Numbered from the stretch's first letter, positions 7,879 to 26,564 are shown. The stretch is DNA of 64,000 nucleotides from Patescibacteria group bacterium (GCA_028716045.1 JAQUQO010000001.1:862343-926342); one strand, 5' to 3'. Numbers and translations: made by a program. Notes: a model not told the origin generated them from the letters alone.

Positions 7879-10731
7879 ATGCCGCAGGAAAAAATAATCA
7901 TCAAGGGCGCGCGAGTCCATAATTTAAAGAATATCAACGTCAATATTCCTAAAAATAAACTCGTGGTGATAACCGGTCTTTCCGGTTCGGGCAAATCCTC
8001 GCTGGCTTTTGATACTATTTATGCCGAAGGCCAGCGCCGTTACGTGGAATCGCTTTCTTCTTACGCCCGCCAGTTTTTAGGAGTAATGGACAAGCCGGAT
8101 GTTGATAAAATTGAAGGATTGTCCCCGGCTATTGCCATTGACCAGCGGTCTTCTTCCACCAACCCCCGTTCCACGGTCGGGACCATGACGGAAATTTATG
8201 ATTATTTGAGATTGCTTTACGCCCGCGCCGGCCGTCCCCATTGCCCGAAGTGCGGCAAGCTGGTGGCTAAGCAGACGGCTAACCAAATTGTTCAAAAGAT
8301 TTTAACTCTTCCCTCCAATCAGGATATTTTAGTCCTTTCGCCGGTTATTCGCGATGTTAAGGGCGACCAGCACGGGACCATTAAAGAAATTAAAAAAGCC
8401 AATTATAAAAATATCAGGATTGACGGAGAATTTTTAAGCGTGGAGGAAGCGGAAAATCTCCATTTTGATAAAAACAGCAAACATACCATAGAGGTCGTAG
8501 TCGGGGGATTTAATACCACTGACATAGATTGGGAAAAATTGCCCAAAGTGATTGACGCCGCCCTAGACCTTGGCAACGGATTTATTTCCGTTTATCTGCC
8601 GGACAACAAAGAGAATATCACCATGAGTGAATTTTTTGTTTGTCCGGAGTGCGATATTTATTTGCCGGAAATTGAGCCGCGGCTTTTTTCTTTTAACTCT
8701 CCCAATGGGGCTTGCGCCAGCTGTTCCGGCCTTGGCACCACACTGGAAGTCATACCTGATTTAGTCATACCCAATAAAAAGCTGACTTTAAATGAAGGAG
8801 CGATTAAGCCCTGGACGCGCATTTCGGGGAATCAAAGCTCGCAGAATAAACTGCTGAAAGAAGTGGCTAAAAAACACGGTTTTACCCTCTCCAAGCCGAT
8901 AGAAAAATTAAAAAAATCGGAAGTGGATGTTATTTTACATGGAACCGGCGAGGAAATTTATAACGTGGATGGGGAGGAAATGAAATTTGAGGGTGTAGTA
9001 AATTATTTAGCCCAAAAATATCGTGAAACCGACTCCGATTATATCCGCAAAGAAATTGAAAATTACATGCAAATTAAGATTTGTAAAACCTGCGACGGCA
9101 AAAGGTTGCGGCCTGAAGCTTTAGCGGTGACTGTCGGAGGATATTCCATTAATGATTTGGTGCGTTTTGATATCGGGAAATTAATTTCCTTTTTTAAGGA
9201 ATTAACCGGCGTTTCCAAAAAATCGGAGTTTAATATAAAGAAGGAAGAAACCCTGTCGGTTTCCGAAAAAAAGATTTCCGACCTTTTAATCAGGGAGGCG
9301 TTGGTGCGCTTGCAACATTTGGCCAATGTCGGCTTAGTTTATTTGAATCTTGACCGTCCTACCACCACCCTTTCCGGCGGAGAGGCCCAGCGCATTCGTC
9401 TGGCCACTCAAATCGGTTCGGATCTCTCGGGCGTAATTTATATTTTAGACGAACCGTCAATCGGTTTGCATCAGCGCGATAATGATAAGCTGATAGAAAC
9501 TTTGCGCGAACTGCAAAAGATCGGCAACACGGTGATTGTGGTGGAGCATGATAAATCAATGATGGAGGCGGCGGACGAAATCATTGATATCGGCCCCGGC
9601 GCGGGAGAATACGGCGGGCACATTGTCGCCCAAGGCTCTCCGGCGGAGATAAAAAAAGACAAGAGTTCGCTCACCGGCAAATATCTAAGCGGGAAATCAA
9701 AAATAGAATTACCCAAAGAGTATCGCCGGGGCAGTAATAAATTTTTAATTATTGAAGGAGCTTCGGAATTTAATTTAAAAAATATCACCGCCAAGATTCC
9801 TTTGGGGAAACTGGTTTGCCTTACCGGCGTTTCCGGTTCTGGCAAATCAACTTTGATGACTGAAATTTTAGCCAAGGCCTTGGCTAAAAAGTTTTATCGC
9901 GCCAAAGATGAGCCGGGCAAACACAAAGCAATTAAGGGCATGGAAAATATAGATAAGGTTATTACCATTGACCAGTCGCCCATCGGCCGTACCCCGCGCT
10001 CCAATCCCGCGACTTATACCGGTGTGTTTACTTACATCCGTGATTTATTTACGCTGACGCCGGAGGCCAAGATGCGCGGTTATGATGCCGGCAAGTTCAG
10101 TTTTAATGTCCGCGGGGGGAGATGTGAATCCTGCGGCGGCGACGGCTTTGTCAGAATTGAGATGCAGTTTCTGCCCGATGTTTATGTGGAGTGCGAAATT
10201 TGTCATGGCAAACGCTATACGGCCGAAGCGCTGGAAATTCATTATAAGGGGAAAAATATCGCTGGTGTTTTGGAGATGACCGTGGAAGAGGCGAGGAAAT
10301 TTTTTTCCGATATTGAAATCATTAAGGATAAATTAAATATCCTCTGCGAAGTGGGGCTGGGTTATATCAAGCTCGGCCAGCCGGCGCCCACTCTTTCCGG
10401 CGGTGAAGCGCAAAGAGTGAAATTGGCGACTGAATTGTCCCGCCGCGCCACCGGCAAGACGCTTTATATTTTAGACGAGCCGACCACCGGCCTTCATTTT
10501 GAGGATATCAAGAAATTATTGATTGTCTTAAACCAATTGGTTGACAAAGGAAATACGGTTTTGATTATTGAACATAATTTAGATGTGGTAAAATGCGCTG
10601 ACTGGGTTATTGATATGGGGCCGGAAGGGGGAGACGCGGGCGGATATATCGTGGCCGAAGGAACGCCTAAAGACGTGGTTAAAGTTAAAAAAAGTTTTAC
10701 GGGAGAATATTTAAAAAAGTTTTTAAAATAG
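7879..10731 (+). CDS. uvrA: excinuclease ABC subunit A
   Basis: 950 aa. Two ABC ATPase modules ([23 protein letters not shown] signatures). Zn-finger Cys clusters. Typical UvrA N-terminus. Confidence 0.95.
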
Positions 10732-10761
10732 TGTTAAAATTGCCAATTAATAAAAATAAAA

Positions 10762-10793
10762 AACGGGCGGTTGATAACCGTCCGTTTTGTTTG
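10762..10793 (+). terminator. intrinsic terminator after uvrA
   Basis: ACGGGCGGTT-GAT-AACCGTCCGT hairpin followed by TTTTGTTT. Confidence 0.6.
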
Positions 10794-10854
10794 AAATTCC
10801 TTTTTAATCATTGGCGAGTAGCCAGTTTCTAATTTTCGTCTTCCATACAGTGGG

Positions 10855-11256
10855 TTATTTAATGTTGTTAAATAACCAGAATAGGTTGTATAGACCAATG
10901 AACAGAATGATGATTATACTGCAGATTAGGCTAATAGCCAGACCGAGAATCAAGCCGAAAATCAGACCGAAAAACAGGCCGAGGAATAGACTGATGAGTA
11001 GGCCATCAACTAGGATGCTGGGGTCTTTCTTTATTACAAATATTATAGTATTTGTAAAAATGAGAGCAGAAAGGATATCCCACCAGCGCGATATAGGGAA
11101 AGGCAGTTGATAAACAGTCCCTTCGCCCAGAGATATTTGGGTTAACTCCGGCACTTCACCGGCAATAAAATACCATATGCCCCAAAAAAGGGCGAAGAAA
11201 GCAGCAGAAAGTATTGACCATCTGACCGTCAGCTTCTTTGTTCTGTTCCAATCCAT
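10855..11256 (-). CDS. hypothetical small membrane protein with repetitive GL/FG-rich C-terminus
   Basis: 133 aa, about 3 TM helices. C-terminal LFLGLFFGLIFGLILGLAISL encoded by periodic CAGACCGA/AATCAGGCCGA DNA repeats. Confidence 0.5.
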   Translation of the reverse strand: MDWNRTKKLTVRWSILSAAFFALFWGIWYFIAGEVPELTQISLGEGTVYQLPFPISRWWDILSALIFTNTIIFVIKKDPSILVDGLLISLFLGLFFGLIFGLILGLAISLICSIIIILFIGLYNLFWLFNNIK

Positions 11257-12896: not shown

Positions 12897-13826
12897 TTAT
12901 TTTAAAATTTTAAGGATATAATTTAATTCTTGGGGCAATGGGGACGAGAATTCTTTCCAGTCATTATTCAAATCACGCCAACCCAAAAGGGAAGCGTGCA
13001 AAAAAACTCTTCGGCAGGCGACCGTTTCTTTTAATTTTTTTGTTTTATAGAGTTTGTCGCCGACAATCGGATGACCGATGGCTTTCAAGTGGACTCTGAT
13101 TTGGTGAGTGCGTCCGGTTAGCAATTTTATTTTTAACAAGCTAAAATGGGTAAACTTTTTTATAATCTCATATTCAGTTAAGGCCTCTTTGCCCTCGACA
13201 TTTTTGGGCCTGGCTGCCATGAGCCCCCGGCCGGTTCTGGCAATGGGAAAATCAATTACTCCTTCGTTTTTGGGCGGGTGGCCATAAACCAAGGCCGTGT
13301 ACTCCTTTTTTATTGTTCTTTCCCGAAACTGTTTTTTGAGCGATTCAAATCCCGCTTCCGAGCGAGCAATAATTAACAAACCAGAAACGTCTTTATCTAT
13401 CCTATGGACGATTCCCGGCCGAGCGGGGTCAGCGCCGATTTTTGCTACTTCCGGATATTTTTTTATAACTTCATCAATGAGTGTGTTATTTTTATGAACA
13501 TTATCAGGATGAACAACCAGCCCCGCTGGCTTATCAACCACGATGAAATTTTTATCGGCGAACACCACGGGAATGTTTAAGTCACGGTTTTTTCCAATGT
13601 CAGAAGAGGACCTCTTCTCTTTATTTTTTATTTTTTTAACAGTAATAACGTCGCCATCTTTTAAAAAGGCATGGACTTTGGCCGGCCGGTTATTTACCAA
13701 AACCGTCTCTGATTTAATTATTTTTTGGATTTGCGCGCGCGATAAATCATTAAGTTTGGCGGTGAGCCATTTGTCCAGTCGTTCTCCGGAGGTAGTACTG
13801 TCAATTTTAAATTCCCGAATAGCCAT
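12897..13826 (-). CDS. rluD: RluA-family 23S rRNA pseudouridine synthase (RluD-like, N-terminal S4 domain)
   Basis: 309 aa. HRIDKDVSGLLIIAR catalytic motif. S4-like N-terminus. Confidence 0.75.
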   Translation of the reverse strand: MAIREFKIDSTTSGERLDKWLTAKLNDLSRAQIQKIIKSETVLVNNRPAKVHAFLKDGDVITVKKIKNKEKRSSSDIGKNRDLNIPVVFADKNFIVVDKPAGLVVHPDNVHKNNTLIDEVIKKYPEVAKIGADPARPGIVHRIDKDVSGLLIIARSEAGFESLKKQFRERTIKKEYTALVYGHPPKNEGVIDFPIARTGRGLMAARPKNVEGKEALTEYEIIKKFTHFSLLKIKLLTGRTHQIRVHLKAIGHPIVGDKLYKTKKLKETVACRRVFLHASLLGWRDLNNDWKEFSSPLPQELNYILKILK

Positions 13827-15334: not shown

Positions 15335-15392
15335 GTTTATATTGTAGCATAAAGCGGGGGCTAGGGTAACAAAAGGCGCGGGGATAGTGGTA

Positions 15393-15421
15393 TTGACAAA
15401 ATTTAAGTGGTATGTTAAGAT
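15393..15421 (+). promoter_or_regulatory. sigma70-like promoter TTGACA-N17-TAAGAT
   Basis: Consensus -35, 17-nt spacer, TAAGAT -10. This -10 recurs in several promoters in the window. Confidence 0.5.
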
Positions 15422-15427
15422 GGTTTG

Positions 15428-15558
15428 TTGTTCATTTAAAATCGGGATAGTGGGCCATTCGTGGTTTTAAATCCACGGAAGTCCTTTCCATAAGTACAGG
15501 GTAAAATTTGTTTTACCGGTTTTTGTATTATTCACCTTAATTAAAGGAGAAAAACACA
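15428..15558 (+). promoter_or_regulatory. structured ~130-nt 5' leader with two hairpins; the second is terminator-like and followed by a U-run (possible attenuator)
   Basis: Hairpins CGTGG-N9-CCACG (15460-15478) and GGTAAAA-TTTG-TTTTACC (15500-15517) followed by GGTTTTTG. SD AAAGGAG lies 9 nt before the ATG. Confidence 0.35.
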
Positions 15559-16239
15559 ATGGCAGAAAAGGCAAAGAAAAATCCGTTTTTGGTCTGCTCG
15601 TCCGACGAGAAATGTTTTCTCGTTGAGATAGAGGGTACCGAACGTCTTCTGATGGACCAGATGACAGGAGAAGAGATTGTCGAGACATTGATTCGTCGCA
15701 AAAGGCAGCAAGCTAAGACGGACGTCTCCCTTGAAGATTTGGCATCCGAGTCAATTTACCGCGACGGAGAAAACAAAATTATTATCCCCGCGGTAAATCT
15801 GCTGTCTTGCCTCCGTGAGGCCGGCAAACAGATTCCTTGGGGAGCGACTTCAAGTAAAAAGAGAATCACCAAAGCCGACGGCACCACCATGCTTCACTCC
15901 TTTCTGAAAATCCCCGATGCCAACCTTATTCTTGAGCTTCCCGAAGAGGGAGTTAACAAGGAGGGCTGGGCTGTGGATGTGCGCAAGGGGAAGCTGAAAG
16001 ACGGCACAGCCGTAGGGATTGTCAGGCCCTTGTTTCGGGAATGGTCGTTTAAAGTCAAAATTTACATTGACTTTTATACCTCCGAAGTGACTCCCGAAAT
16101 GGTCGGCAAGCTTTTTTTCACGGCTGGCAAATCGGTCGGACTTTGTGCTTTCCGTCCGGCCTGCGGTGGTCCTTTTGGCACTTTCCACGTCAAAAGCTGG
16201 GAAGAGGTTAAGGCCCCTGCAGCTGAAGAAGCCGCGTAA
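15559..16239 (+). CDS. hypothetical protein, no family recognised; G+C-richer than its neighbours
   Basis: 226 aa. Own promoter and SD. Codon usage visibly richer in G/C-ending codons (CTC, GTC, GAC) than flanking genes. Gly/Cys-rich C-terminal segment GLCAFRPACGGPFGTF. Confidence 0.6.
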   Translation: MAEKAKKNPFLVCSSDEKCFLVEIEGTERLLMDQMTGEEIVETLIRRKRQQAKTDVSLEDLASESIYRDGENKIIIPAVNLLSCLREAGKQIPWGATSSKKRITKADGTTMLHSFLKIPDANLILELPEEGVNKEGWAVDVRKGKLKDGTAVGIVRPLFREWSFKVKIYIDFYTSEVTPEMVGKLFFTAGKSVGLCAFRPACGGPFGTFHVKSWEEVKAPAAEEAA

Positions 16240-16258
16240 AAAGTTGCGTAATGAATTT

Positions 16259-16286
16259 GGGATAGGGTTAAAATTTAACCCTATCC
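16259..16286 (+). other. perfect 13-bp stem-loop GGATAGGGTTAAA/TTTAACCCTATCC just after the stop codon; no U-run, so not a terminator
   Basis: Read directly in the 3' UTR of gene 15559-16239. Confidence 0.5.
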
Positions 16287-16374
16287 AACCGATTGTTATG
16301 GTTTTCGTTTATTCTCAGTGCGTTATTGTTCAGTAGACCAAAGCCTCGTAAGGTGGTGTAACCTACCGCAGCTC

Positions 16375-16412
16375 GGGGCAAGGTCCATTAAGACCTTGCC
16401 TTTTTCTTTTTT
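16375..16412 (+). terminator. intrinsic terminator, copy A of the locus-specific hairpin family (GGGGCAAGGTCCATTAAGACCTTGCC + U-run)
   Basis: Stem-loop plus TTTTTCTTTTTT. Ends the 3' UTR / sRNA-1 of gene 15559. Confidence 0.65.
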
Positions 16413-16436
16413 GCACCCCCCTTGTCATTTAATTTA

Positions 16437-16464
16437 TTTAAAGTTAACAGATTTTTTGTAATAT
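16437..16464 (+). promoter_or_regulatory. candidate promoter TTTAAA-N16-TAATAT (TG immediately upstream of the -10)
   Basis: Motif spacing read directly. Weaker -35 than the other promoters. Confidence 0.35.
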
Positions 16465-16470
16465 AGCTAT

Positions 16471-16630
16471 CTTTTGTGCCGCGTTTTTCACTTGTGCAGC
16501 GTGTTGTCTGGCGTAGCAATCCAGAGCTCAGCACACTTTACAGCCCTAAAGTTTCGTAGAGTAAAGTCTTGCCCCCCACCGTTCAGTTCGCCACAGGGCA
16601 GAGTCCATTGAGACCCTGCCTTTTTTATTT
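16471..16630 (+). ncRNA. putative small RNA unit 2 (~155 nt), ends in terminator copy B
   Basis: No ORF. Bounded by promoter and terminator. Shares the motifs GCGTAGC...CCAGAGC...AGCACA...CAGGGCAG with unit 3b. Confidence 0.4.
16594..16630 (+). terminator. intrinsic terminator, copy B (CAGGGCAGAGTCCATTGAGACCCTGCC + T6)
   Basis: Near-identical to copies C and D. Confidence 0.65.
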
Positions 16631-16688
16631 CCTTTAACTAAGCCCCTGACACGCCCCAATGCTTGGCATCGGGGCACTCCAAAAGTGC

Positions 16689-16717
16689 TTGACAAGTTTT
16701 ATGCTGTTTGTTAAGAT
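16689..16717 (+). promoter_or_regulatory. sigma70-like promoter TTGACA-N17-TAAGAT
   Basis: Consensus -35 and 17-nt spacer. Same -10 as the promoter of gene 15559. Confidence 0.55.
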
Positions 16718-16723
16718 TTTTTG

Positions 16724-16856
16724 TTGAGTAATAATATATAGTTATAAAATGCTTTGTGATCTGCTGTGTTGTTCACCCCGACTTTCTTGGGTTCAGTAAA
16801 GCATAGCGAATTAATGTAGAGCATAGGGCCTCGAATTTTCGGGGCCACTTTTTTTA
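16724..16856 (+). ncRNA. putative small RNA unit 3a (~130 nt) with its own distinct terminator
   Basis: Promoter upstream. Terminator GGCCTCGAA-TTT-TCGGGGCC + T7 at 16826-16856. Body motif AGCATAGCGAATTAATGTAGAGCATAGGGCC is related to units 2 and 3b. Confidence 0.4.
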
Positions 16857-16870
16857 AAACACCGTATTTA

Positions 16871-16899
16871 TTGACAAAAGATGATTTCCATGCTAATAT
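16871..16899 (+). promoter_or_regulatory. sigma70-like promoter TTGACA-N17-TAATAT
   Basis: Consensus spacing. Confidence 0.55.
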
Positions 16900-16905
16900 A
16901 TATTT

Positions 16906-17016
16906 TATATAAGAGTAGCGCTTAGTTTCATTTAGTTAGGCACTGCGTAGCGCATTAAATTTCAGAGCATTGTAGCACAGGGCAGGGTCCAGTGAGATTC
17001 TGCCATTTTTATTTTT
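16906..17016 (+). ncRNA. putative small RNA unit 3b (~105 nt), ends in terminator copy C
   Basis: GTAGCGC...GCGTAGCGCATTAAATTTCAGAGCATTGTAGCACAGGGCAGGGTCC is paralogous to unit 2. Confidence 0.4.
16978..17016 (+). terminator. intrinsic terminator, copy C (CAGGGCAGGGTCCAGTGAGATTCTGCC + U-run)
   Basis: Covarying stem changes relative to copies B and D preserve base pairing. Confidence 0.65.
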
Positions 17017-17020
17017 GCTA

Positions 17021-17049
17021 TTGACAAAAATCAGAGTTTATATTAGAAT
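17021..17049 (+). promoter_or_regulatory. sigma70-like promoter TTGACA-N17-TAGAAT for the helicase gene
   Basis: Consensus spacing. SD AAGGAAA precedes the ATG at 17103. Confidence 0.6.
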
Positions 17050-17063
17050 ATAAAGATTTTTGA

Positions 17064-18923
17064 TTGTTTAAGATTAAACGTTCTTTGAGAAAGGAAATTA
17101 AAATGAATGTAGCAGTAAAGGATTTTTTAAAGCATTTTCCCCATGAAAAGATGAGGGATACACAGGAAAAGGCGTTAGAGAAAGTTGCTAGCTCAGAAAA
17201 GGGCGTAATTCTTGAAATGCCAACCGGTTCCGGTAAAACGGCGGTCGGCATAACTGTTCTTAAGACGATGGCTAAAAAAGGGAGTAAAGGTCTTTTTTAT
17301 ATTACTCCCACCAAAACTTTAGTTGACCAAATACGGCGTCTTTTCCCAAATGATGTGACAGTTATTCTTGGTCGGGCGGAGTATCAGTGCCTTTATTACA
17401 GTTCGCAAGGAATTCTCGGGATAAATGCCGAAGAATCTCCTTGCTATATGCTGAAGTGTCCACATCGCGTTGACCAAGAGACGGGTAAGGTTTGCGAAAG
17501 CGGCGTTGAACCGTGTCCTTATTTCAAAGCCAAGCATGAAGCCAAAAAACGGGCAGAGGAAGGTGGAATTGTTCTTTGCACGACCGCTTTTTTCCTTAAA
17601 AACAGGTTGACGGTAGAGGGTTGGCGTGATAACAAACCGGATGCGGTCGTTATTGATGAAGTGCATCGGTTGGCCAAAATTGCAAGGGATATTTTTTCTT
17701 ACACTCTTACCGATTATCATCTTGGGAGAGTTGCTAAATTGGTAGCGGAGTTTGACGAGAAACAAGCTGAGATTATCAAAAAGTTTAATGGGCGTTTTAG
17801 GCAGATTGCCCGGCGAAGAATATCTTGCAAGCCGTCCCTTTTGAAAATAGAAGAAGTCGAGAGCTTGATCAAGATAATGGAAAATATAGATGACCAATAT
17901 CTTGAGAAAAAAATTAGGGAAGCGGTAGATGCCGGCAAAATTAATCCCGTGGAGCAGAAAGGCGACCTTAAAACATTGGAGAATTTTATTACCAATATAC
18001 CTCGACTTATCCGGTCTCTTTGTTATGCGACTGATTTGGAAAAAGAAAATCCGCTTAATTACGTTGTCGCCTTTTATTACACAAAGGACGACCCGGAATT
18101 TGCTGGCACCAAAAGAAAGGCAAGATATTTTCTTACCATCAAAAGCTATTTTGTTATTCCGATTATCAGGCGGGTGCTTGGCAAAAAGGTAATTGCCTAT
18201 TCCGCTACTATCGGCGATAGTAGAATATTCAGTTTTGAGACGGGGATCAAGTTGCCCTTCTTTAGCTTTCCCTCTATGTTCCCCATAGAGCAGGCCAAGA
18301 TTTTTATGCCGACAGATACAAAAAATTTGGCGGTAAGCAGAAGAAGAAGGGGCGACCTGAGCAAGAGTCTGCGTCTGGTAGTGGAAACATCTTTGCTTTT
18401 TGCCAAGAAGGGCTGTCGTTCTTTGGTGGTAGTGGTTTCAGAGGAAGAACGGCAGAAGTTTTTACAGATTGCGGGCGAAAAAGGGTTGGAGGCGATAAGC
18501 TATGGGAATGGGATAAAGCCCAGAGAAGCGGCCGCTAAATTTTCCCGCGGAGAGGGGCAAGTTCTTGTGGGAACCGCTGCCAACTATTCCGAGGGTGTTG
18601 ATTTCCCCAAAAAACTTGCGCCGGTGATTTTTTTCTTACGACCCGGTTATCAACGTCCTGATGACCCGGAAACCCAGTTTGAAGAAAGACGGTTTACCAA
18701 CGGTCAGGTCTGGGCATTAAGAAATTGGCGGGTGATGTTAGAGGCGTTGCAGGTTCGGGGCCGCAATATTCGCGGCGCTGAAGATATTGGGGTGTGTTTC
18801 TTTATATCCCAGCAGTTCCGCAATTTCCTTTATACTTCTATGCCGGAGTGGTTAAAACCAGCTTACTCGGGGCAACTGACAATGGAGGGGGCAGTGAAGG
18901 AGGCGATGAAATTATTAAAGTGA
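17064..18923 (+). CDS. XPD/DinG-like superfamily-2 helicase with Fe-S (4-Cys) insertion
   Basis: Walker A MPTGSGKT. DEVH box (VVIDEVHRL). Cys cluster (CLYY...CYMLKCPH...CESGVEPCPY) between motifs I and II, as in XPD/DinG. C-terminal GTAANYSEGVDFP helicase_C_2-like motif. The likely true start is ATG 17103 (MNVAVKDFL), which has an SD. Confidence 0.7.
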   Translation: MFKIKRSLRKEIKMNVAVKDFLKHFPHEKMRDTQEKALEKVASSEKGVILEMPTGSGKTAVGITVLKTMAKKGSKGLFYITPTKTLVDQIRRLFPNDVTVILGRAEYQCLYYSSQGILGINAEESPCYMLKCPHRVDQETGKVCESGVEPCPYFKAKHEAKKRAEEGGIVLCTTAFFLKNRLTVEGWRDNKPDAVVIDEVHRLAKIARDIFSYTLTDYHLGRVAKLVAEFDEKQAEIIKKFNGRFRQIARRRISCKPSLLKIEEVESLIKIMENIDDQYLEKKIREAVDAGKINPVEQKGDLKTLENFITNIPRLIRSLCYATDLEKENPLNYVVAFYYTKDDPEFAGTKRKARYFLTIKSYFVIPIIRRVLGKKVIAYSATIGDSRIFSFETGIKLPFFSFPSMFPIEQAKIFMPTDTKNLAVSRRRRGDLSKSLRLVVETSLLFAKKGCRSLVVVVSEEERQKFLQIAGEKGLEAISYGNGIKPREAAAKFSRGEGQVLVGTAANYSEGVDFPKKLAPVIFFLRPGYQRPDDPETQFEERRFTNGQVWALRNWRVMLEALQVRGRNIRGAEDIGVCFFISQQFRNFLYTSMPEWLKPAYSGQLTMEGAVKEAMKLLK

Positions 18924-19031
18924 AACATTATAATAAATGTACAGTCCTTTATTGTAAATTACCGAACAGTATAGTGACGTTTAGTCTTCTGGCGTCACGT
19001 CGACTCGAGTCTTGAACACAACACTACTGTG

Positions 19032-19067
19032 CAGGGCAGGGTCCATTGAGACCCTGCCATTTTTTAT
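19032..19067 (+). terminator. intrinsic terminator, copy D (CAGGGCAGGGTCCATTGAGACCCTGCC + U-run), ~110 nt after the helicase stop
   Basis: Identical hairpin to copy B apart from one stem base. Confidence 0.65.
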
Positions 19068-19076
19068 CAAATCCAA

Positions 19077-19108
19077 CCTCTCCCGACAAATATCGGAGAG
19101 GTTTTTTT
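19077..19108. terminator. second hairpin CCTCTCCCGA-CAAATA-TCGGAGAGG + T7, bidirectional (serves the convergent M23 gene)
   Basis: Stem-loop read directly. Confidence 0.55.
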
Positions 19109-19133
19109 ATTTTCCCGGATAAATATAAAGCGA

Positions 19134-20456
19134 TTATTTTATATATAACAGCGGGTTCATTTTGCGCCCGTTGATGATTACTTCAAAGTGAATATGCGTG
19201 CCGGTGGAGCGTCCGGTGGTTCCCATCATAGCAATAGTTTCCCCGCGGCTGACTTGTTGGCCTCTTTTTACAAAAAGTTTGCTGGCATGGCCGTAGCGGG
19301 TTTTGACTCCATTCCCATGATTGATTAATATTTGCAACCCATATCCGCCCAGCCACCCCGCGGATTCCACCGTCCCACTTTCGGCGGCATAGAGCGGCGA
19401 GCGGTAGTCGCCGTCAATATCAAGACCGCTGTGACGCCAGCTGTAATATTGAGTGATGACACGCCAGCTGGTCGGCCAAAGCATTTTGCCGCTGGCAATT
19501 TGCGTCGACCCGGGCGGTTTCACGGCGCTTTTATCAACCGGACTCCAGGTTCTGGCAGGGGCGCTATAAACAGGAATAATCTTGCCGTCAGGCACCATTA
19601 AAATATCTCCGGTGGCGATGTCACTGGTATCAGTCAGTTTATTGAAAGCAATAATTTTTTCTTCGGTAGAACCGTATTGTTTGGCGATTTTCGCGACCGT
19701 ATCGCCCTTTTTGACTTTGTGCTCCACGCCGTCAGCCGGCAGAATTTTTAATTTGTCGCCCGGCCGGATGTAGCTGTAAGCGCTTAGGTTATTCGCCCAA
19801 AGCATAGTATTCACCGCCAAGCTGAACTTTTCCGCGATACTGGAAATAGTATCATTTTGCTCAACGATATATTCAACCGTTTCGGTGCGGGTTTTTAAGC
19901 CGAGTTTGGTGTTGGAGATATTGGTTCGGACAAGGGCAGTGTCTCCTTGGGCGGTTGGCAAATCACTTTCTTCCTCGGTGACATCTTCAATTAAATAAGG
20001 GACCGGCCGGAGAGTACTCTGAATGCCGCGCGAACTATCCAAGTAGCTCAAGAGTTTGTCTTCTTTTTCCGGTATGGCGCTTTCCTTTTCTACTATCGGG
20101 CCTTCTTCAATGGTGTAATTATAACTCAGGTCGTCTTTGACCATAGAATAAAGAATGCTCTTTTCTCCGAAATCTTCCCGGCGGGTTTCTTGGGCGTTGA
20201 GATTGTCAAAAGTTATTAAAGCGACGATGGCGATGATGACTACGTAGACAGCGTATTGATTGGTAAAGACGGAAAGAAATTTATTTTGCTGATAAACAAA
20301 AATTTTTTGCAGGAACCTTTTTATGGTTAGATAAGTTTTATAAAACGAAATTATCGCTGGCCGTCCGAGAAATTTCCAGGTTTGTCCTGCCAGCCAAGCT
20401 AAGAGCGGTTTTAGATTTTTTCTAAGAAAATTAAAAAATCTGCCAAAATAAATCAA
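19134..20456 (-). CDS. LysM-domain M23 family metallopeptidase (peptidoglycan hydrolase)
   Basis: 440 aa. N-terminal TM helix. Two LysM-like segments. C-terminal M23 motifs HSGLDIDG...HLHFEV-type (HIHFEV). Confidence 0.85.
   Translation of the reverse strand: MIYFGRFFNFLRKNLKPLLAWLAGQTWKFLGRPAIISFYKTYLTIKRFLQKIFVYQQNKFLSVFTNQYAVYVVIIAIVALITFDNLNAQETRREDFGEKSILYSMVKDDLSYNYTIEEGPIVEKESAIPEKEDKLLSYLDSSRGIQSTLRPVPYLIEDVTEEESDLPTAQGDTALVRTNISNTKLGLKTRTETVEYIVEQNDTISSIAEKFSLAVNTMLWANNLSAYSYIRPGDKLKILPADGVEHKVKKGDTVAKIAKQYGSTEEKIIAFNKLTDTSDIATGDILMVPDGKIIPVYSAPARTWSPVDKSAVKPPGSTQIASGKMLWPTSWRVITQYYSWRHSGLDIDGDYRSPLYAAESGTVESAGWLGGYGLQILINHGNGVKTRYGHASKLFVKRGQQVSRGETIAMMGTTGRSTGTHIHFEVIINGRKMNPLLYIK

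Positions 20457-25803: not shown

Positions 25804-25815
<12 letters not shown>
25485..25815 (+). mobile_element. putative mini insertion (~295 bp) carrying a GIY-YIG ORF, bounded by 18-19 bp direct repeats TATTAAGCGGTAGTAGTT equal to the 5' end of tRNA-Gly
   Basis: DR copies at 25485-25502 and 25798-25815. The left copy continues as a degenerate tRNA-Gly 5' half (D-arm TTGGTAGAACG retained, anticodon arm replaced by palindrome CCCCGCCATGGCGGGG). Confidence 0.35.
25562..25810 (+). CDS. GIY-YIG nuclease-domain protein (YhbQ/UPF0213-like)
   Basis: 82 aa. FVYILQS...YYIGSTNDLSRRLEEHN matches the GIY-YIG motif. The stop codon lies inside the first bases of tRNA-Gly. Confidence 0.7.
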
Positions 25816-25876
<61 letters not shown>

Positions 25877-25968
25877 CAAAGAAAAAATTATTGTATTTGG
25901 GTTTTGAAAATGTAAATTTTTTCAGAACGGACCACCCGTTTTTTATTTTTGTCGTGCGGGTTTTGGGT

Positions 25969-25989
25969 GACCCCGCCTTGGCGGGGGAA
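25969..25989 (+). repeat. 21-bp hairpin element GACCCCGCCTTGGCGGGGGAA (exact second copy at 33358-33378; related palindrome at 25537-25552)
   Basis: Exact string match seen twice. Lies immediately 5' of tRNA-Leu(TAA). Confidence 0.8.
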
Positions 25990-25996
25990 CCGAAAG

Positions 25997-26084
25997 GCCG
26001 AGGTGGTGAAATAGGTAGACACGCGAGACTTAAAATCTCGTGGATGAATAATCCGTGCGGGTTCGATTCCCGCCCTCGGCACCA
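25997..26084 (+). tRNA. tRNA-Leu(TAA), CCA encoded
   Basis: GCCGAGG acceptor stem, anticodon loop CTTAAAA, long variable arm, GGTTCGATTCC T-arm, ...CACCA 3' end. Confidence 0.85.
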
Positions 26085-26085
26085 A

Positions 26086-26174
26086 GACAACCAACAACAG
26101 AACAACAGAACAACTGACAACCCAGAACATTCTATCTCGTTGTTAGTTATTGGTTGTAGGTTGTCAGTTCCTTT
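26086..26174 (+). repeat. ~90-nt tRNA-Lys leader, copy 1 (CAACCAACAACAGAAC...GGTTGTAGGTTGTCAGTTCC), with internal inverted repeats
   Basis: Near-identical to 26401-26489. Copy 1 has an extra CAGAACAA duplication. Confidence 0.8.
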
Positions 26175-26250
26175 GCGCCGTTAGCTCAGCTGGTAGAGCA
26201 ACTGCCTTTTAAGCAGAAGGTCACAGGTTCAAATCCTGTACGGCGTACCA
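26175..26250 (+). tRNA. tRNA-Lys(TTT), CCA encoded
   Basis: GCGCCGTTAGCTCAGCTGGTAGAGC, anticodon loop CTTTTAA, T-arm GGTTCAAATCC. Confidence 0.85.
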
Positions 26251-26312
26251 GAGCGGACATCTTCGAACGTTCGTAAATTATTTTTTATTAGTGTAGTGAA
26301 AAGAAAAATTTT

Positions 26313-26399
26313 GGGTCGGTACCAAAGCGGTCAACTGGGGCAGACTGTAAATCTGCTGGCCTTGTGCCTTCGTTGGTTCGAATCCAGCCCGACCCACCA
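26313..26399 (+). tRNA. tRNA-Tyr(GTA), long variable arm, CCA encoded
   Basis: GGGTCGG acceptor stem, anticodon loop CTGTAAA, GGTTCGAATCC T-arm. Confidence 0.85.
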
Positions 26400-26400
26400 A

Positions 26401-26489
26401 GATAACAAGACAACCAACAACAGAACAACTGACAACCCAGAACATTCTATCTCGTTGTTGGTTATTGGTTGTAGGTTGTCAGTTCCTTT
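26401..26489 (+). repeat. tRNA-Lys leader, copy 2
   Basis: Segmental duplicate of 26086-26174. Confidence 0.8.
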
Positions 26490-26564
26490 GCGCCGTTAGC
26501 TCAGCTGGTAGAGCAGTTGCCTCTTAAGCAAACGGTCGCAGGTTCAAATCCTGCACGGCGCACC
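26490..26564 (+). tRNA. tRNA-Lys(CTT)
   Basis: Same body as Lys(TTT) but anticodon loop CTCTTAA. 3' end ACC (CCA not fully encoded). Confidence 0.85.

What the first reader, a model, noticed from the sequence alone, without database searches (positions are those of the whole stretch)
15335..19110. Candidate uncharacterised module: unknown 226-aa protein, sRNA array and XPD/DinG-type Fe-S helicase, all closed by one terminator family
The locus is organised in the order unknown gene, sRNAs, helicase, all on the same strand. The unknown gene (15559-16239) is G+C-richer than its surroundings. It has its own TTGACA-N17-TAAGAT promoter and a structured attenuator-like leader. The sRNA units 2 and 3a-3b follow. 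The helicase (17064-18923) has Walker A, a DEVH box and the 4-Cys Fe-S insertion between them, which is diagnostic of XPD/DinG/Csf4-type helicases. The same terminator hairpin closes the unknown gene's 3' UTR, two of the three sRNA units and the helicase 3' UTR. The other six terminators I found in this window are unrelated to it. XPD/DinG helicases act with small guide RNAs in type IV CRISPR systems (Csf4) and occur in other defence systems. There is no CRISPR array, cas gene or RT here, so if this is a functional unit it does not match a described system. Housekeeping DinG plus unrelated sRNAs is the null hypothesis.
Basis: inference. Interest (0 to 1): 0.75.

Follow-up and report, generated by a model that had tools for sequence, protein, structure and literature searches.

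The report
VIPR RNA-guided system with helicase
The "unknown protein, small RNAs and helicase" are one unit: a VIPR system, a CRISPR-like but array-less RNA-guided DNA-binding system first described in 2026 preprints, here in a Patescibacteria chromosome with an XPD-type helicase as its accessory enzyme.

Summary
It is no longer undescribed: it is a VIPR (Viral Interference Programmable Repeat) system.

- **Protein.** The 226-aa protein is a Vipr, a minimal single-RRM RAMP. Its family profile hits PDB 36pp "SUSP1 Vipr protein" at E=5e-13, and the AF2 model matches Csm3/Cas7.
- **RNAs.** The sRNAs are five vrRNAs. Each is a tract of 14-25 in-phase YNNNG pentamers running into a hairpin plus U-run tail. 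These are the only five such tracts in 64 kb, all on the + strand. The "shared terminator" is the vrRNA tail.
- **Helicase.** The XPD/Rad3-type 4-Cys helicase is the accessory (vap) gene, not housekeeping DinG. Of 67 Patescibacteria loci holding its orthologue, 61 carry a vipr within 5 kb. Those loci hold 324 pentamer tracts on the helicase strand against 4 on the other.
- **Code.** Asp177 binds the first G of GGY in SUSP1 Vipr. Here it is Ala197, which fits the relaxed YNNNG repeat.

No targets were found, and the helicase's role is inferred by analogy with type IV-A CasDinG. The attenuator-like leader is not supported.

Novelty: new member of a known, very recent kind, probably the uncharacterised helicase-carrying type.

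The parts
15393..15421 (+). sigma-70-type promoter of vipr (TTGACA-N17-TAAGAT, TG-extended)
   Evidence: (family D2)
15422..15558 (+). 5' leader of vipr. It has no pentamer periodicity, and its predicted structure is not significant.
   Evidence: z = -1.7
15559..16239 (+). vipr: a 226-aa single-RRM RAMP (Vipr). G-loop is GLCAFRP (A197, F198, R199); the thumb Arg is R156.
16260..16286 (+). perfect 13-bp palindrome just after the vipr stop codon. Possible processing or pause element between the vipr mRNA and vrRNA1 (inferred).
   Evidence: I7
16309..16410 (+). vrRNA1, in the vipr 3' UTR. It has 14 pentamers (16309-16378; 9 are YNNNG, 14 of 14 have Y1), then tail hairpin 16375-16402 and a U-run. 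No promoter of its own was found.
16437..16473 (+). weak promoter-like region for vrRNA2 (TTAACA-18-TATCTT from the scan, or TTTAAA-16-TAATAT read by eye)
   Evidence: sequence
16472..16626 (+). vrRNA2: 25 pentamers (16472-16596; 17 are YNNNG, 24 have Y1), then tail hairpin 16597-16620 and a U-run
16689..16717 (+). promoter of vrRNA3a (TTGACA-N17-TAAGAT)
16722..16856 (+). vrRNA3a: pentamer tract to 16826 (16 counted from 16747; 10 are YNNNG). A variant tail hairpin lies at 16827-16846, followed by a U-run. It shares the AGGGC junction with the other tails.
16871..16899 (+). promoter of vrRNA3b (TTGACA-N17-TAATAT)
16906..17010 (+). vrRNA3b: 14 pentamers (16911-16980; 9 are YNNNG), then tail hairpin 16981-17004 and a U-run
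17021..17049 (+). promoter of the helicase gene (TTGACA-N17-TAGAAT, 11 of 12 consensus positions)
17103..18923 (+). VIPR accessory (vap) helicase: a 606-aa XPD/Rad3-type SF2 helicase with Walker A, DEVH and a conserved 4-Cys Fe-S module
18906..18934 (+). promoter-like site (ATGAAA-N17-TATAAT) at the end of the helicase ORF. It may drive vrRNA4 independently.
18935..19065 (+). vrRNA4, in the helicase 3' UTR: 20 pentamers (18935-19034; 12 are YNNNG), then tail hairpin 19035-19058 and a U-run
19077..19108 (+). second, unrelated intrinsic terminator that closes the locus (CCTCTCC...GGAGAGG followed by T7)
   Evidence: sequence

Best explanation
Window 15393-19108 is a complete VIPR system of the helicase-accessory kind, sitting in the chromosome of a Patescibacteria (CPR) bacterium. 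Its parts are vipr (226 aa), five guide RNAs (vrRNAs) and an XPD/Rad3-type Fe-S helicase as the accessory (vap) gene.

Each vrRNA is a tract of 14-25 pentamers of consensus YNNNG. Each tract ends in an invariant AGGGC junction and a GC-rich hairpin with a U-run. That hairpin serves both as the vrRNA 'tail' and as an intrinsic terminator. Three vrRNAs are separate small transcription units. Two lie in the 3' UTRs of vipr and of the helicase gene.

1. One Vipr protomer binds each pentamer. The conserved G is clamped by thumb R156 and G-loop F198, and the following pyrimidine by R199.
2. The variable bases are presented for gapped pairing with double-stranded DNA, and an R-loop triplex forms on the target.
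3. The residue that reads the first G of GGY in SUSP1 (Asp177) is Ala197 here. This accounts for the relaxed N-G-Y (YNNNG) repeat.

Further inference, by analogy with CasDinG in type IV-A CRISPR: the helicase is recruited to the bound filament or displaced strand. It then translocates 5'->3' and turns simple binding into stronger interference with transcription or replication of the target, without a nuclease.

The most likely biological role is nuclease-free defence against phages or other mobile elements of a CRISPR-poor lineage.

The confidence of 0.88 refers to the identification as a VIPR system. The helicase's role and the defence function are considerably less certain.
For: Protein identity (shown):
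- The family has 780 cluster representatives.
- All 73 aligned members hit phrog_4652.
- The family profile hits PDB 36pp_D 'SUSP1 Vipr protein' at E=5.2e-13 over its full length. This is the only PDB hit.
- The AF2 model (pLDDT 78.5, pTM 0.75) matches Csm3/Cas7 of type III-A, type VII Cas7 and Cmr4 at E~1e-6. It also matches uncharacterised phage and archaeal-virus proteins.

RNA (shown):
- Tracts with at least 8 of 12 in-phase YNNNG pentamers occur only at the five sRNA positions, all on the + strand. The minus strand reaches at most 6 of 12. Shuffles give 0-2 clusters.
- Across 89 pentamers, position 1 is Y in 91% and position 5 is G in 69%.
- The tail hairpin occurs 4 times against 0 expected. 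The AGGGC junction is invariant in all 5 tails.
- Positive control: the same scan finds three canonical YNNGG tracts next to the Vipr homologue of Pseudomonas phage LESphi2.

Linkage (shown):
- 61 of 67 species-level Patescibacteria loci holding the helicase orthologue have a vipr within 5 kb, nearly always on the same strand, either upstream or downstream.
- Those loci hold 324 tracts on the helicase strand against 4 on the opposite strand.

Recognition-code fit:
- Loci with Asp at the position equivalent to SUSP1 D177 have G at pentamer position 4 in 0.34 of pentamers. Loci with Ala or Ser there have 0.17 (Mann-Whitney p=4e-6).

Literature:
- The VIPR definition, the alternative YNNNG consensus and helicase accessory genes are described in bioRxiv 10.64898/2026.04.26.720920.
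- The residue contacts are in 10.64898/2026.04.26.720927.
Against: - There is no expression, RNP or binding data for this locus.
- No target was found in the window under nine pairing rules. Seed-and-extend scans of IMG/VR and JGI metagenomes gave only chance-level extensions. Defence against mobile elements is therefore unproven, and the pairing rule for YNNNG repeats is unknown.
- Only 57 of 89 pentamers (64%) fit YNNNG strictly.
- vrRNA1 has no recognisable promoter.
- The helicase's role rests on analogy alone.
- I could not see the paper's supplementary data. Assignment to its helicase-carrying type (type IV, by elimination from the text) is inference.
- The Asp/G4 correlation is not corrected for phylogeny.
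Confidence: 0.88

Rival explanations
1. Null hypothesis: the helicase is the lineage's housekeeping DinG/XPD repair helicase. The neighbouring small protein and sRNAs are unrelated.
For: The helicase has >340 homologues across Patescibacteria at 45-60% identity, which looks like a conserved core gene. The flanking genes are all housekeeping.
Against: Of 67 orthologue loci, 61 carry vipr within 5 kb, and the six that lack one are mostly short or truncated contigs. Tract counts are 324 on the helicase strand against 4 on the other. NCBIfam DinG, YoaA and Rad3 scores are 39-49 bits against cut-offs of 247-789. The helicase's own 3' UTR is a vrRNA.
Confidence: 0.03
2. A degenerate or minimal type IV CRISPR-Cas remnant, with a Cas7/Csf2-like protein, a Csf4 DinG helicase and a decayed array.
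For: The PADLOC model 'typeIV_DinG' (PDLC01439) hits the helicase at E=2.6e-48 over its full length. The small protein has a Cas7-like fold.
Against: There are no CRISPR repeats and no Cas5, Cas6, Cas8 or Cas1 in the locus. The canonical Csf4 model matches only at 5.8e-4. No CasDinG structure is hit; the nearest solved relative is archaeal XPD. The RNAs are pentamer tracts, not spacer-repeat units. By sequence the protein is specifically Vipr.
Confidence: 0.03
3. It is a VIPR system in composition, but it has been domesticated for endogenous gene regulation. The vrRNAs would silence host chromosomal genes rather than defend against mobile elements.
For: The context is chromosomal and housekeeping, with no defence island or prophage. 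No helicase relatives were found in IMG/VR. No viral or metagenomic targets were found. There is partial synteny with a relative: UvrA and a pseudouridine synthase lie near the locus in both the window and L002.
Against: No self-target was found in the 64-kb window under nine rules. The published VIPRs that were analysed showed no self-targeting and hit phages or satellites. vrRNA number varies widely between relatives (0-19 tracts at the 9-of-12 threshold). That pattern is typical of arms-race repertoires.
Confidence: 0.12
4. An inactive relic: the genes are intact but the vrRNAs are decaying and non-functional.
For: Only 64% of pentamers fit YNNNG strictly. One tail copy has an A.C mismatch and another has two G.U pairs.
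Against: Both ORFs are intact with conserved catalytic and RNA-contact residues. Near-consensus promoters and terminators are kept at each unit. Position 1 is Y in 91% of pentamers. The paper itself notes frequent internal degeneracy in functional vrRNAs.
Confidence: 0.05

Closest known systems
VIPR type II systems (Escherichia phage SUSP1; Pseudomonas fulva prophage). Sources: bioRxiv 10.64898/2026.04.26.720920 and .720927; PDB 36pp.
   Same: Homologous Vipr protein, with the conserved thumb Arg (R156 = R138) and the G-loop aromatic and Arg (F198/R199 = W178/R179). Guide RNAs are made of tandem pentamers followed by an invariant structured 3' tail. The locus is two genes flanked by vrRNAs, with no CRISPR array. 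vrRNAs lie both upstream and downstream of the genes.
   Different: The repeat is YNNNG rather than YNNGG, and Ala replaces Asp177. The accessory gene is an XPD-type helicase rather than a small DNA-binding vap1. The host is a cellular CPR chromosome, not a phage. The tail is a plain terminator hairpin rather than a pseudoknot. Tracts are longer (up to 25 repeats). The pairing rule has not been tested for this repeat type.
Helicase-carrying VIPR type(s) in the seven-type classification (types III-V 'encode predicted nucleases or helicases'; by elimination probably type IV)
   Same: A Vipr plus a predicted helicase as vap. The paper lists alternative pentamer consensus forms, including YNNNG.
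   Different: I could not verify that this Patescibacteria XPD-like clade is the one in the paper, because the supplementary data are not held. The paper reports no experiments or target analysis for the helicase type.
Type IV-A CRISPR-Cas (Csf complex plus CasDinG/Csf4)
   Same: A RAMP filament on a guide RNA, paired with an SF2 DinG/XPD-family helicase and no nuclease. The likely outcome is nuclease-free interference or silencing.
   Different: There is no CRISPR array, adaptation module, Cas5, Cas6 or Cas8. The protein is Vipr, with a single RRM. The helicase keeps a conserved 4-Cys Fe-S module and is nearest to archaeal XPD. From my own knowledge, CasDinG has only a vestigial Fe-S domain. 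The guide code is gapped pentamers rather than a contiguous spacer.
Housekeeping XPD/Rad3/DinG/YoaA helicases
   Same: Walker A, a DEAH-type box, a 4-Cys insertion between them and a Helicase_C_2 domain.
   Different: Scores are far below every NCBIfam equivalog cut-off. The gene is near-obligately linked to vipr and vrRNAs, and its 3' UTR encodes a guide RNA.

Membership tests
VIPR system | A Vipr protein: a minimal single-RRM RAMP homologous to the characterised Vipr proteins | tested here: met
   The profile of 73 family members hits PDB 36pp_D 'SUSP1 Vipr protein' at E=5.2e-13 over residues 14-207. All 73 hit phrog_4652. The AF2 model matches Cas7/Csm3 RAMPs.
VIPR system | G-loop and thumb residues that hold the conserved repeat bases (SUSP1 R138, D177, W178, R179) | tested here: met
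   Alignments give R156=R138, F198=W178 and R199=R179; R156 and R199 are nearly invariant in the family, while F198 is not among the >=90% conserved columns. D177 is Ala197 here, matching the loss of the first G in the repeat.
VIPR system | vrRNAs made of tandem pentanucleotide repeats (YNNGG, or the related NNNGG, YNNNG or NNNNG; at least 4 units, typically 9-16 and up to 30) | tested here: met
   There are five tracts of 14-25 in-phase pentamers of consensus YNNNG. They are the only ones in 64 kb, all on the + strand, and exceed shuffles.
VIPR system | An invariant structured 3' tail after the repeat tract | tested here: met
   The same hairpin follows 4 of 5 tracts, against 0 expected. The AGGGC junction is invariant in 5 of 5. 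One G-C to A-T compensatory change is present in copy 1.
VIPR system | A minimal locus of vipr plus one accessory (vap) gene, with no CRISPR array or cas genes | tested here: met
   The two genes are flanked by housekeeping genes, and there is no CRISPR array. Helicase and vipr are linked in 61 of 67 relatives.
VIPR system | vrRNAs are expressed, bind Vipr and direct gapped recognition of dsDNA | not testable with these tools
   This needs sRNA-seq, RNP pull-down and binding or repression assays. The computational target search found nothing.
Type IV CRISPR-Cas | A CRISPR repeat-spacer array processed into crRNAs | tested here: not met
   There are no CRISPR-like direct repeats in the window. 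The RNAs are pentamer tracts.
Type IV CRISPR-Cas | A multisubunit Csf effector (Csf1/Cas8-like, Csf2/Cas7, Csf3/Cas5, and Cas6/Csf5) | tested here: not met
   The locus holds only one RAMP-like gene. PADLOC gives no hit for it, and the neighbours are housekeeping genes.
Type IV CRISPR-Cas | A CasDinG (Csf4)-clade helicase | tested here: inconclusive
   The generic PADLOC typeIV_DinG model hits at 2.6e-48, but the Csf4_0_IVA model only at 5.8e-4. No CasDinG chain appears among the PDB hits; the best hits are archaeal XPD.
Housekeeping DinG/YoaA/XPD | Score above the curated equivalog cut-offs | tested here: not met
   YoaA scores 48.9 against 680, DinG 39.8 against 789 and rad3 39.3 against 247 bits.
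Housekeeping DinG/YoaA/XPD | A genomic context independent of guide-RNA genes | tested here: not met
   vipr lies within 5 kb in 61 of 67 loci.

The most novel reading that the evidence does not exclude
The Patescibacteria XPD-helicase VIPR would be a distinct, cellular, largely vertically kept branch of VIPR with three properties.
- It uses a different recognition code: only G-Y is anchored, leaving three free bases per pentamer. The target spacing may therefore differ from the published 1-nt-skip rule.
- It has independently converged on the 'RAMP filament plus Fe-S helicase' solution of type IV-A CRISPR.
- It serves as a major RNA-guided immunity, or gene-control system, of the CRISPR-poor candidate phyla radiation.

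My data do not exclude this. No helicase relatives were found in IMG/VR. The context is housekeeping. The Asp-to-Ala change tracks loss of the first G. The published rule found no targets.
Probability: 0.3. Interest if true: 0.75.

Novelty: new member of a known kind. Interest (0 to 1): 0.58.

Why it matters
VIPR was reported only in 2026 preprints, as a gapped-code, RNA-guided DNA-binding system proposed to predate CRISPR. Its helicase-carrying form has no experimental or target data.

This locus is a compact, cleanly delimited example: one vipr, five promoter- and terminator-bounded guides, and one helicase, in about 3.7 kb. It could be moved into a heterologous host to ask what a helicase adds to a Vipr filament.

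The comparative data add three points:
- The XPD-like helicase clade widespread in Patescibacteria is a VIPR accessory gene. Annotation pipelines now call it a generic helicase, and PADLOC's model would tag it 'type IV DinG'.
- CPR genomes can carry up to about 19 vrRNA tracts within 5 kb of the helicase (at the 9-of-12 threshold).
- A single G-loop residue (Asp against Ala or Ser) tracks whether the repeat is GGY-like or NGY-like. This is a testable handle on the protein-RNA recognition code.

Tried and rejected
- **Word-indexed protein search.** It found only the query itself for the 226-aa protein, and only 12 proteins with the family profile. The exhaustive HMMER search was needed.
- **Single-sequence AF2.** The model was useless (pLDDT 41).
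- **Pfam, NCBIfam and PADLOC.** None gave a hit for the small protein.
- **The search for related loci with Vipr alignments.** It failed because no stretch was conserved enough. I anchored on the helicase instead.
- **Plain G-only period-5 Fourier scan.** It did not single out the locus. The signal appeared only when Y at position 1 and G at position 5 were scored jointly in phase.
- **Target search.**
  - The window itself under nine pairing rules gave no better than shuffled-order controls, apart from two marginal one-position excesses (vr1 N3N4_skip2 19 v 18; vr4 NNN_skip2 36 v 35).
  - Five IMG/VR scans used 8-repeat seeds and one JGI metagenome scan used a 9-repeat seed. The rule was positions 2-3 with a 1-nt skip, which also covers contiguous 3-nt pairing. 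Extensions were at chance level; the best were 12 of 34, 11 of 24 and 10 of 22.
  - Period-4 and period-5 target spacings were not scanned in public collections.
- **Attenuator-like leader.** Rejected as unsupported (z = -1.7). The Rfam hit there is noise.
- **Hammerhead-interspersed array architecture.** No Rfam match in the locus.
- **Specific CasDinG relationship.** Not supported by PDB sequence hits.
- **Paper supplements.** Not held, so I could not confirm the paper's type label.

Full report
**1. Observation**

- ORF 15559-16239 encodes 226 aa. Its G+C is 50.1% against 41.1% for the window, which puts it in the top 1.4% of 680-nt windows.
- Four near-consensus promoters of the form TTGACA-N17-TA..AT lie at 15393, 16689, 16871 and 17021.
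- The hairpin GGCAGGGTCCATTGAGACCCTGCC occurs four times within 3 mismatches, at 16377, 16597, 16981 and 19035. All copies are on the + strand, none lies elsewhere in 64 kb, and shuffles give none.
- The helicase ORF carries Walker A, DEVH and four conserved Cys out of the five present in that stretch. Its likely start is ATG 17103, behind a GAAAGGAAA ribosome-binding site, not TTG 17064.
- The proposed attenuator-like leader folds no better than many shuffles (z = -1.7).

**2. The small protein is a Vipr**

- Pfam, NCBIfam and PADLOC give nothing for it. The word-indexed search found only the protein itself.
- The exhaustive HMMER search found 780 cluster representatives at E<1e-3.
- All 73 aligned members match phrog_4652, a phage family of unknown function.
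- A profile of the 73 members hits exactly one solved structure: 36pp_D, 'SUSP1 Vipr protein', at E=5.2e-13 over nearly its full length. The window protein alone hits the same chain.
- With a 12-sequence alignment AF2 gives pLDDT 78.5 and pTM 0.75.
- Foldseek places the model among Cas7-type RAMPs (Csm3, type VII Cas7, Cmr4; E~1e-6). It also matches uncharacterised phage and archaeal-virus proteins.

**3. What the literature says**

Two 2026 preprints define VIPR systems (10.64898/2026.04.26.720920; 10.64898/2026.04.26.720927).
- A VIPR system has a ~20-kDa Vipr RAMP and ~100-nt vrRNAs.
- Each vrRNA is made of 9-16 (up to 30) YNNGG pentamers, or the related NNNGG, YNNNG or NNNNG, followed by an invariant structured 3' tail.
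- There is usually one accessory vap gene.
- One Vipr protomer binds each repeat. It sequesters GGY and presents NN for gapped pairing to dsDNA, skipping every third target base. The result is an R-loop triplex that silences transcription.
- Seven types exist. Types III-V carry predicted nucleases or helicases. Types III and V are stated to be the only nuclease types.

**4. The sRNAs are vrRNAs**

- I scored in-phase pentamers with Y at position 1 and G at position 5. Windows with at least 8 of 12 occur only at 16309-16398, 16457-16606, 16762-16846, 16916-17002 and 18940-19034.
- All five are on the + strand. The minus strand reaches at most 6 of 12, and shuffles give 0-2 clusters.
- Laid out in register, the five tracts hold 14, 25, 16, 14 and 20 pentamers. 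Position 1 is Y in 91%, position 5 is G in 69%, and positions 2-4 are variable.
- Four of the five tracts run in phase into the tail; in vr1 the hairpin is offset from the pentamer register by 2 nt. The AGGGC junction is invariant in all five.
- Four tails share the hairpin. Copy 1 carries a compensatory G-C to A-T change. vrRNA3a has a different GC hairpin.
- The 'terminator family' is therefore the vrRNA tail doubling as an intrinsic terminator.
- vrRNA3a and vrRNA3b have strong promoters of their own. vrRNA2 has a weaker one. vrRNA4 has a promoter-like site inside the end of the helicase ORF. vrRNA1 appears to be co-transcribed with vipr.
- Positive control: the only phage BLAST hit of the protein is a hypothetical protein of Pseudomonas phage LESphi2. 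Three canonical YNNGG tracts sit immediately upstream of it and were found by the same script.
- Rfam finds no known RNA family and no hammerhead in the locus.

**5. The helicase belongs to the system**

- It has more than 340 homologues across Patescibacteria at 45-60% identity.
- In the first relatives examined, a Vipr homologue lies upstream of the helicase in L001 (31% identity, E=2e-21) and downstream in L002 (38% identity, E=6e-39).
- L002 has its own locus-specific tail hairpin after an sRNA, after the helicase and after vipr.
- A helicase-anchored scan of GTDB species representatives returned 67 loci. Almost all are Patescibacteria/CPR MAGs by their record titles, though some titles carry other labels (Gammaproteobacteria, Woesearchaeota, Aenigmatarchaeota, Bdellovibrionales), probably mis-assigned.
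- Of these, 61 have a Vipr hit within 5 kb. Most of the six without one are truncated contigs.
- Those loci contain 324 YNNNG tracts (at least 9 of 12) on the helicase strand against 4 on the other.
- L024 shows dense arrays of units about 125-310 nt apart (mostly 125-150), each a pentamer tract plus a conserved tail hairpin with compensatory variants.
- The helicase scores far below the DinG, YoaA and Rad3 equivalog cut-offs.
- Its nearest solved relatives are archaeal XPD (Ta0057, E~2e-14), and no CasDinG chain is hit.
- The strong PADLOC 'typeIV_DinG' hit (2.6e-48) comes from a generic associated model. The Csf4-specific model scores only 5.8e-4.
- No relative of the helicase was found in IMG/VR.
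- The window's flanks are housekeeping genes: UvrA, Cmk, RluD and the CCA-adding enzyme on one side; an M23 peptidase, H+-PPase, trigger factor, Nfo, tRNAs, YmdB and RNase Y on the other.
- The window holds a single vipr and a single helicase of this clade, and no CRISPR array.

**6. Recognition-code detail**

- In SUSP1, R138 (thumb) and W178 hold the second G. R179 holds the pyrimidine. D177 reads the first G.
- The alignments put R156, F198 and R199 of the window protein at the first three positions, and Ala197 at the fourth.
- Across the relatives, loci with Asp at that position have G at pentamer position 4 in 0.34 of pentamers (n=21 loci). Loci with Ala or Ser have 0.17 (n=13). Mann-Whitney p=4e-6, not corrected for phylogeny.
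- This explains why the window's repeat is YNNNG rather than YNNGG. It predicts that the geometry of three displaced bases and two or three presented bases is retained.

**7. Mechanism and what remains inferred**

- Shown: protein homology, RNA architecture and gene linkage.
- Inferred from the SUSP1 and P. fulva work: filament assembly on the pentamers, gapped dsDNA recognition and silencing.
- Inferred by analogy with type IV-A CRISPR, from my own knowledge of CasDinG studies: the XPD-like helicase is recruited to the R-loop and strengthens interference without cleavage.
- Unknown: the targets.
  - Nine pairing rules found nothing in the window beyond controls.
  - Seed-and-extend scans of IMG/VR and JGI metagenomes gave only chance-level extensions.
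  - Defence against CPR phages is the most likely role. Endogenous regulation is not excluded.

**8. Verdict**

- The module now has a name. It is a new member of the VIPR kind, most likely the helicase-carrying type, which the preprints list but do not characterise.
- Interest is moderate to high. The system class is new and important, and this locus is a compact experimental entry point to the helicase type. The kind itself, however, is already described.

Noticed in passing
window 15559-16239; also L001:4246-4950 and L002:8067-8762: The vipr gene is markedly G+C-richer than its genome: 50.1% against 41.1%, in the top 1.4% of windows. The vipr genes of L001 and L002 also look GC-rich against AT-rich flanks. 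The cause is not determined; it could be codon or expression bias, or foreign origin.
   Followed up: partly
window 16260-16286: A perfect 13-bp palindrome (GGATAGGGTTAAA/TTTAACCCTATCC) with no U-run lies directly after the vipr stop codon and before vrRNA1. It could be a processing or pause site that releases vrRNA1 from the vipr mRNA.
   Followed up: no
L007, L026, L049, L050, L052, L066 (loci): Several relatives carry two Vipr-like genes. Some are in tandem, and some have one on each side of the helicase. The second copy is much more divergent (E 1e-17 to 1e-41), which suggests paralogous Vipr subunits in some systems.
   Followed up: no
L055 (whole 11.9 kb); L048:1156-7428; L024:3663-7986: These are very large vrRNA repertoires, with up to about 30 tracts per locus at the 8-of-12 threshold. 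L055 has tracts spread over more than 11 kb on both sides of the helicase and no vipr within 5 kb.
   Followed up: partly
window 17103-18923: PADLOC model PDLC01439 ('typeIV_DinG, CAS-IV-A associated') matches this VIPR helicase at 2.6e-48 over its full length, while the Csf4-specific model barely matches. Defence-system annotators could therefore mislabel these CPR helicases as type IV CRISPR components.
   Followed up: partly
window 7879-10731 and 12897-13826; L002:1-1140 and 10116-11147: UvrA and an RluD-type pseudouridine synthase lie within a few kb of the VIPR locus in both the window and L002. This hints at partial synteny and vertical inheritance in this sub-lineage. L001 and L004 have different neighbours.
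   Followed up: no
L004/L005 (P0027 locus), L016, L058: A few helicase orthologues have no vipr hit and no pentamer tracts within 5-6 kb. L004 and L058 are not truncated. In these loci the helicase may act alone, or the partner may lie elsewhere.
   Followed up: no
window 25804-26564: A cluster of five tRNA genes (Gly-GCC, Leu-TAA, Lys-TTT, Tyr-GTA, Lys-CTT) lies on the + strand. It is ordinary.
   Followed up: no
window 19077-19108: A second, unrelated intrinsic terminator lies about 12 nt after the vrRNA4 tail. It faces the convergent M23 peptidase gene that ends at 19134, and acts as a back-up stop for the VIPR locus.
   Followed up: no
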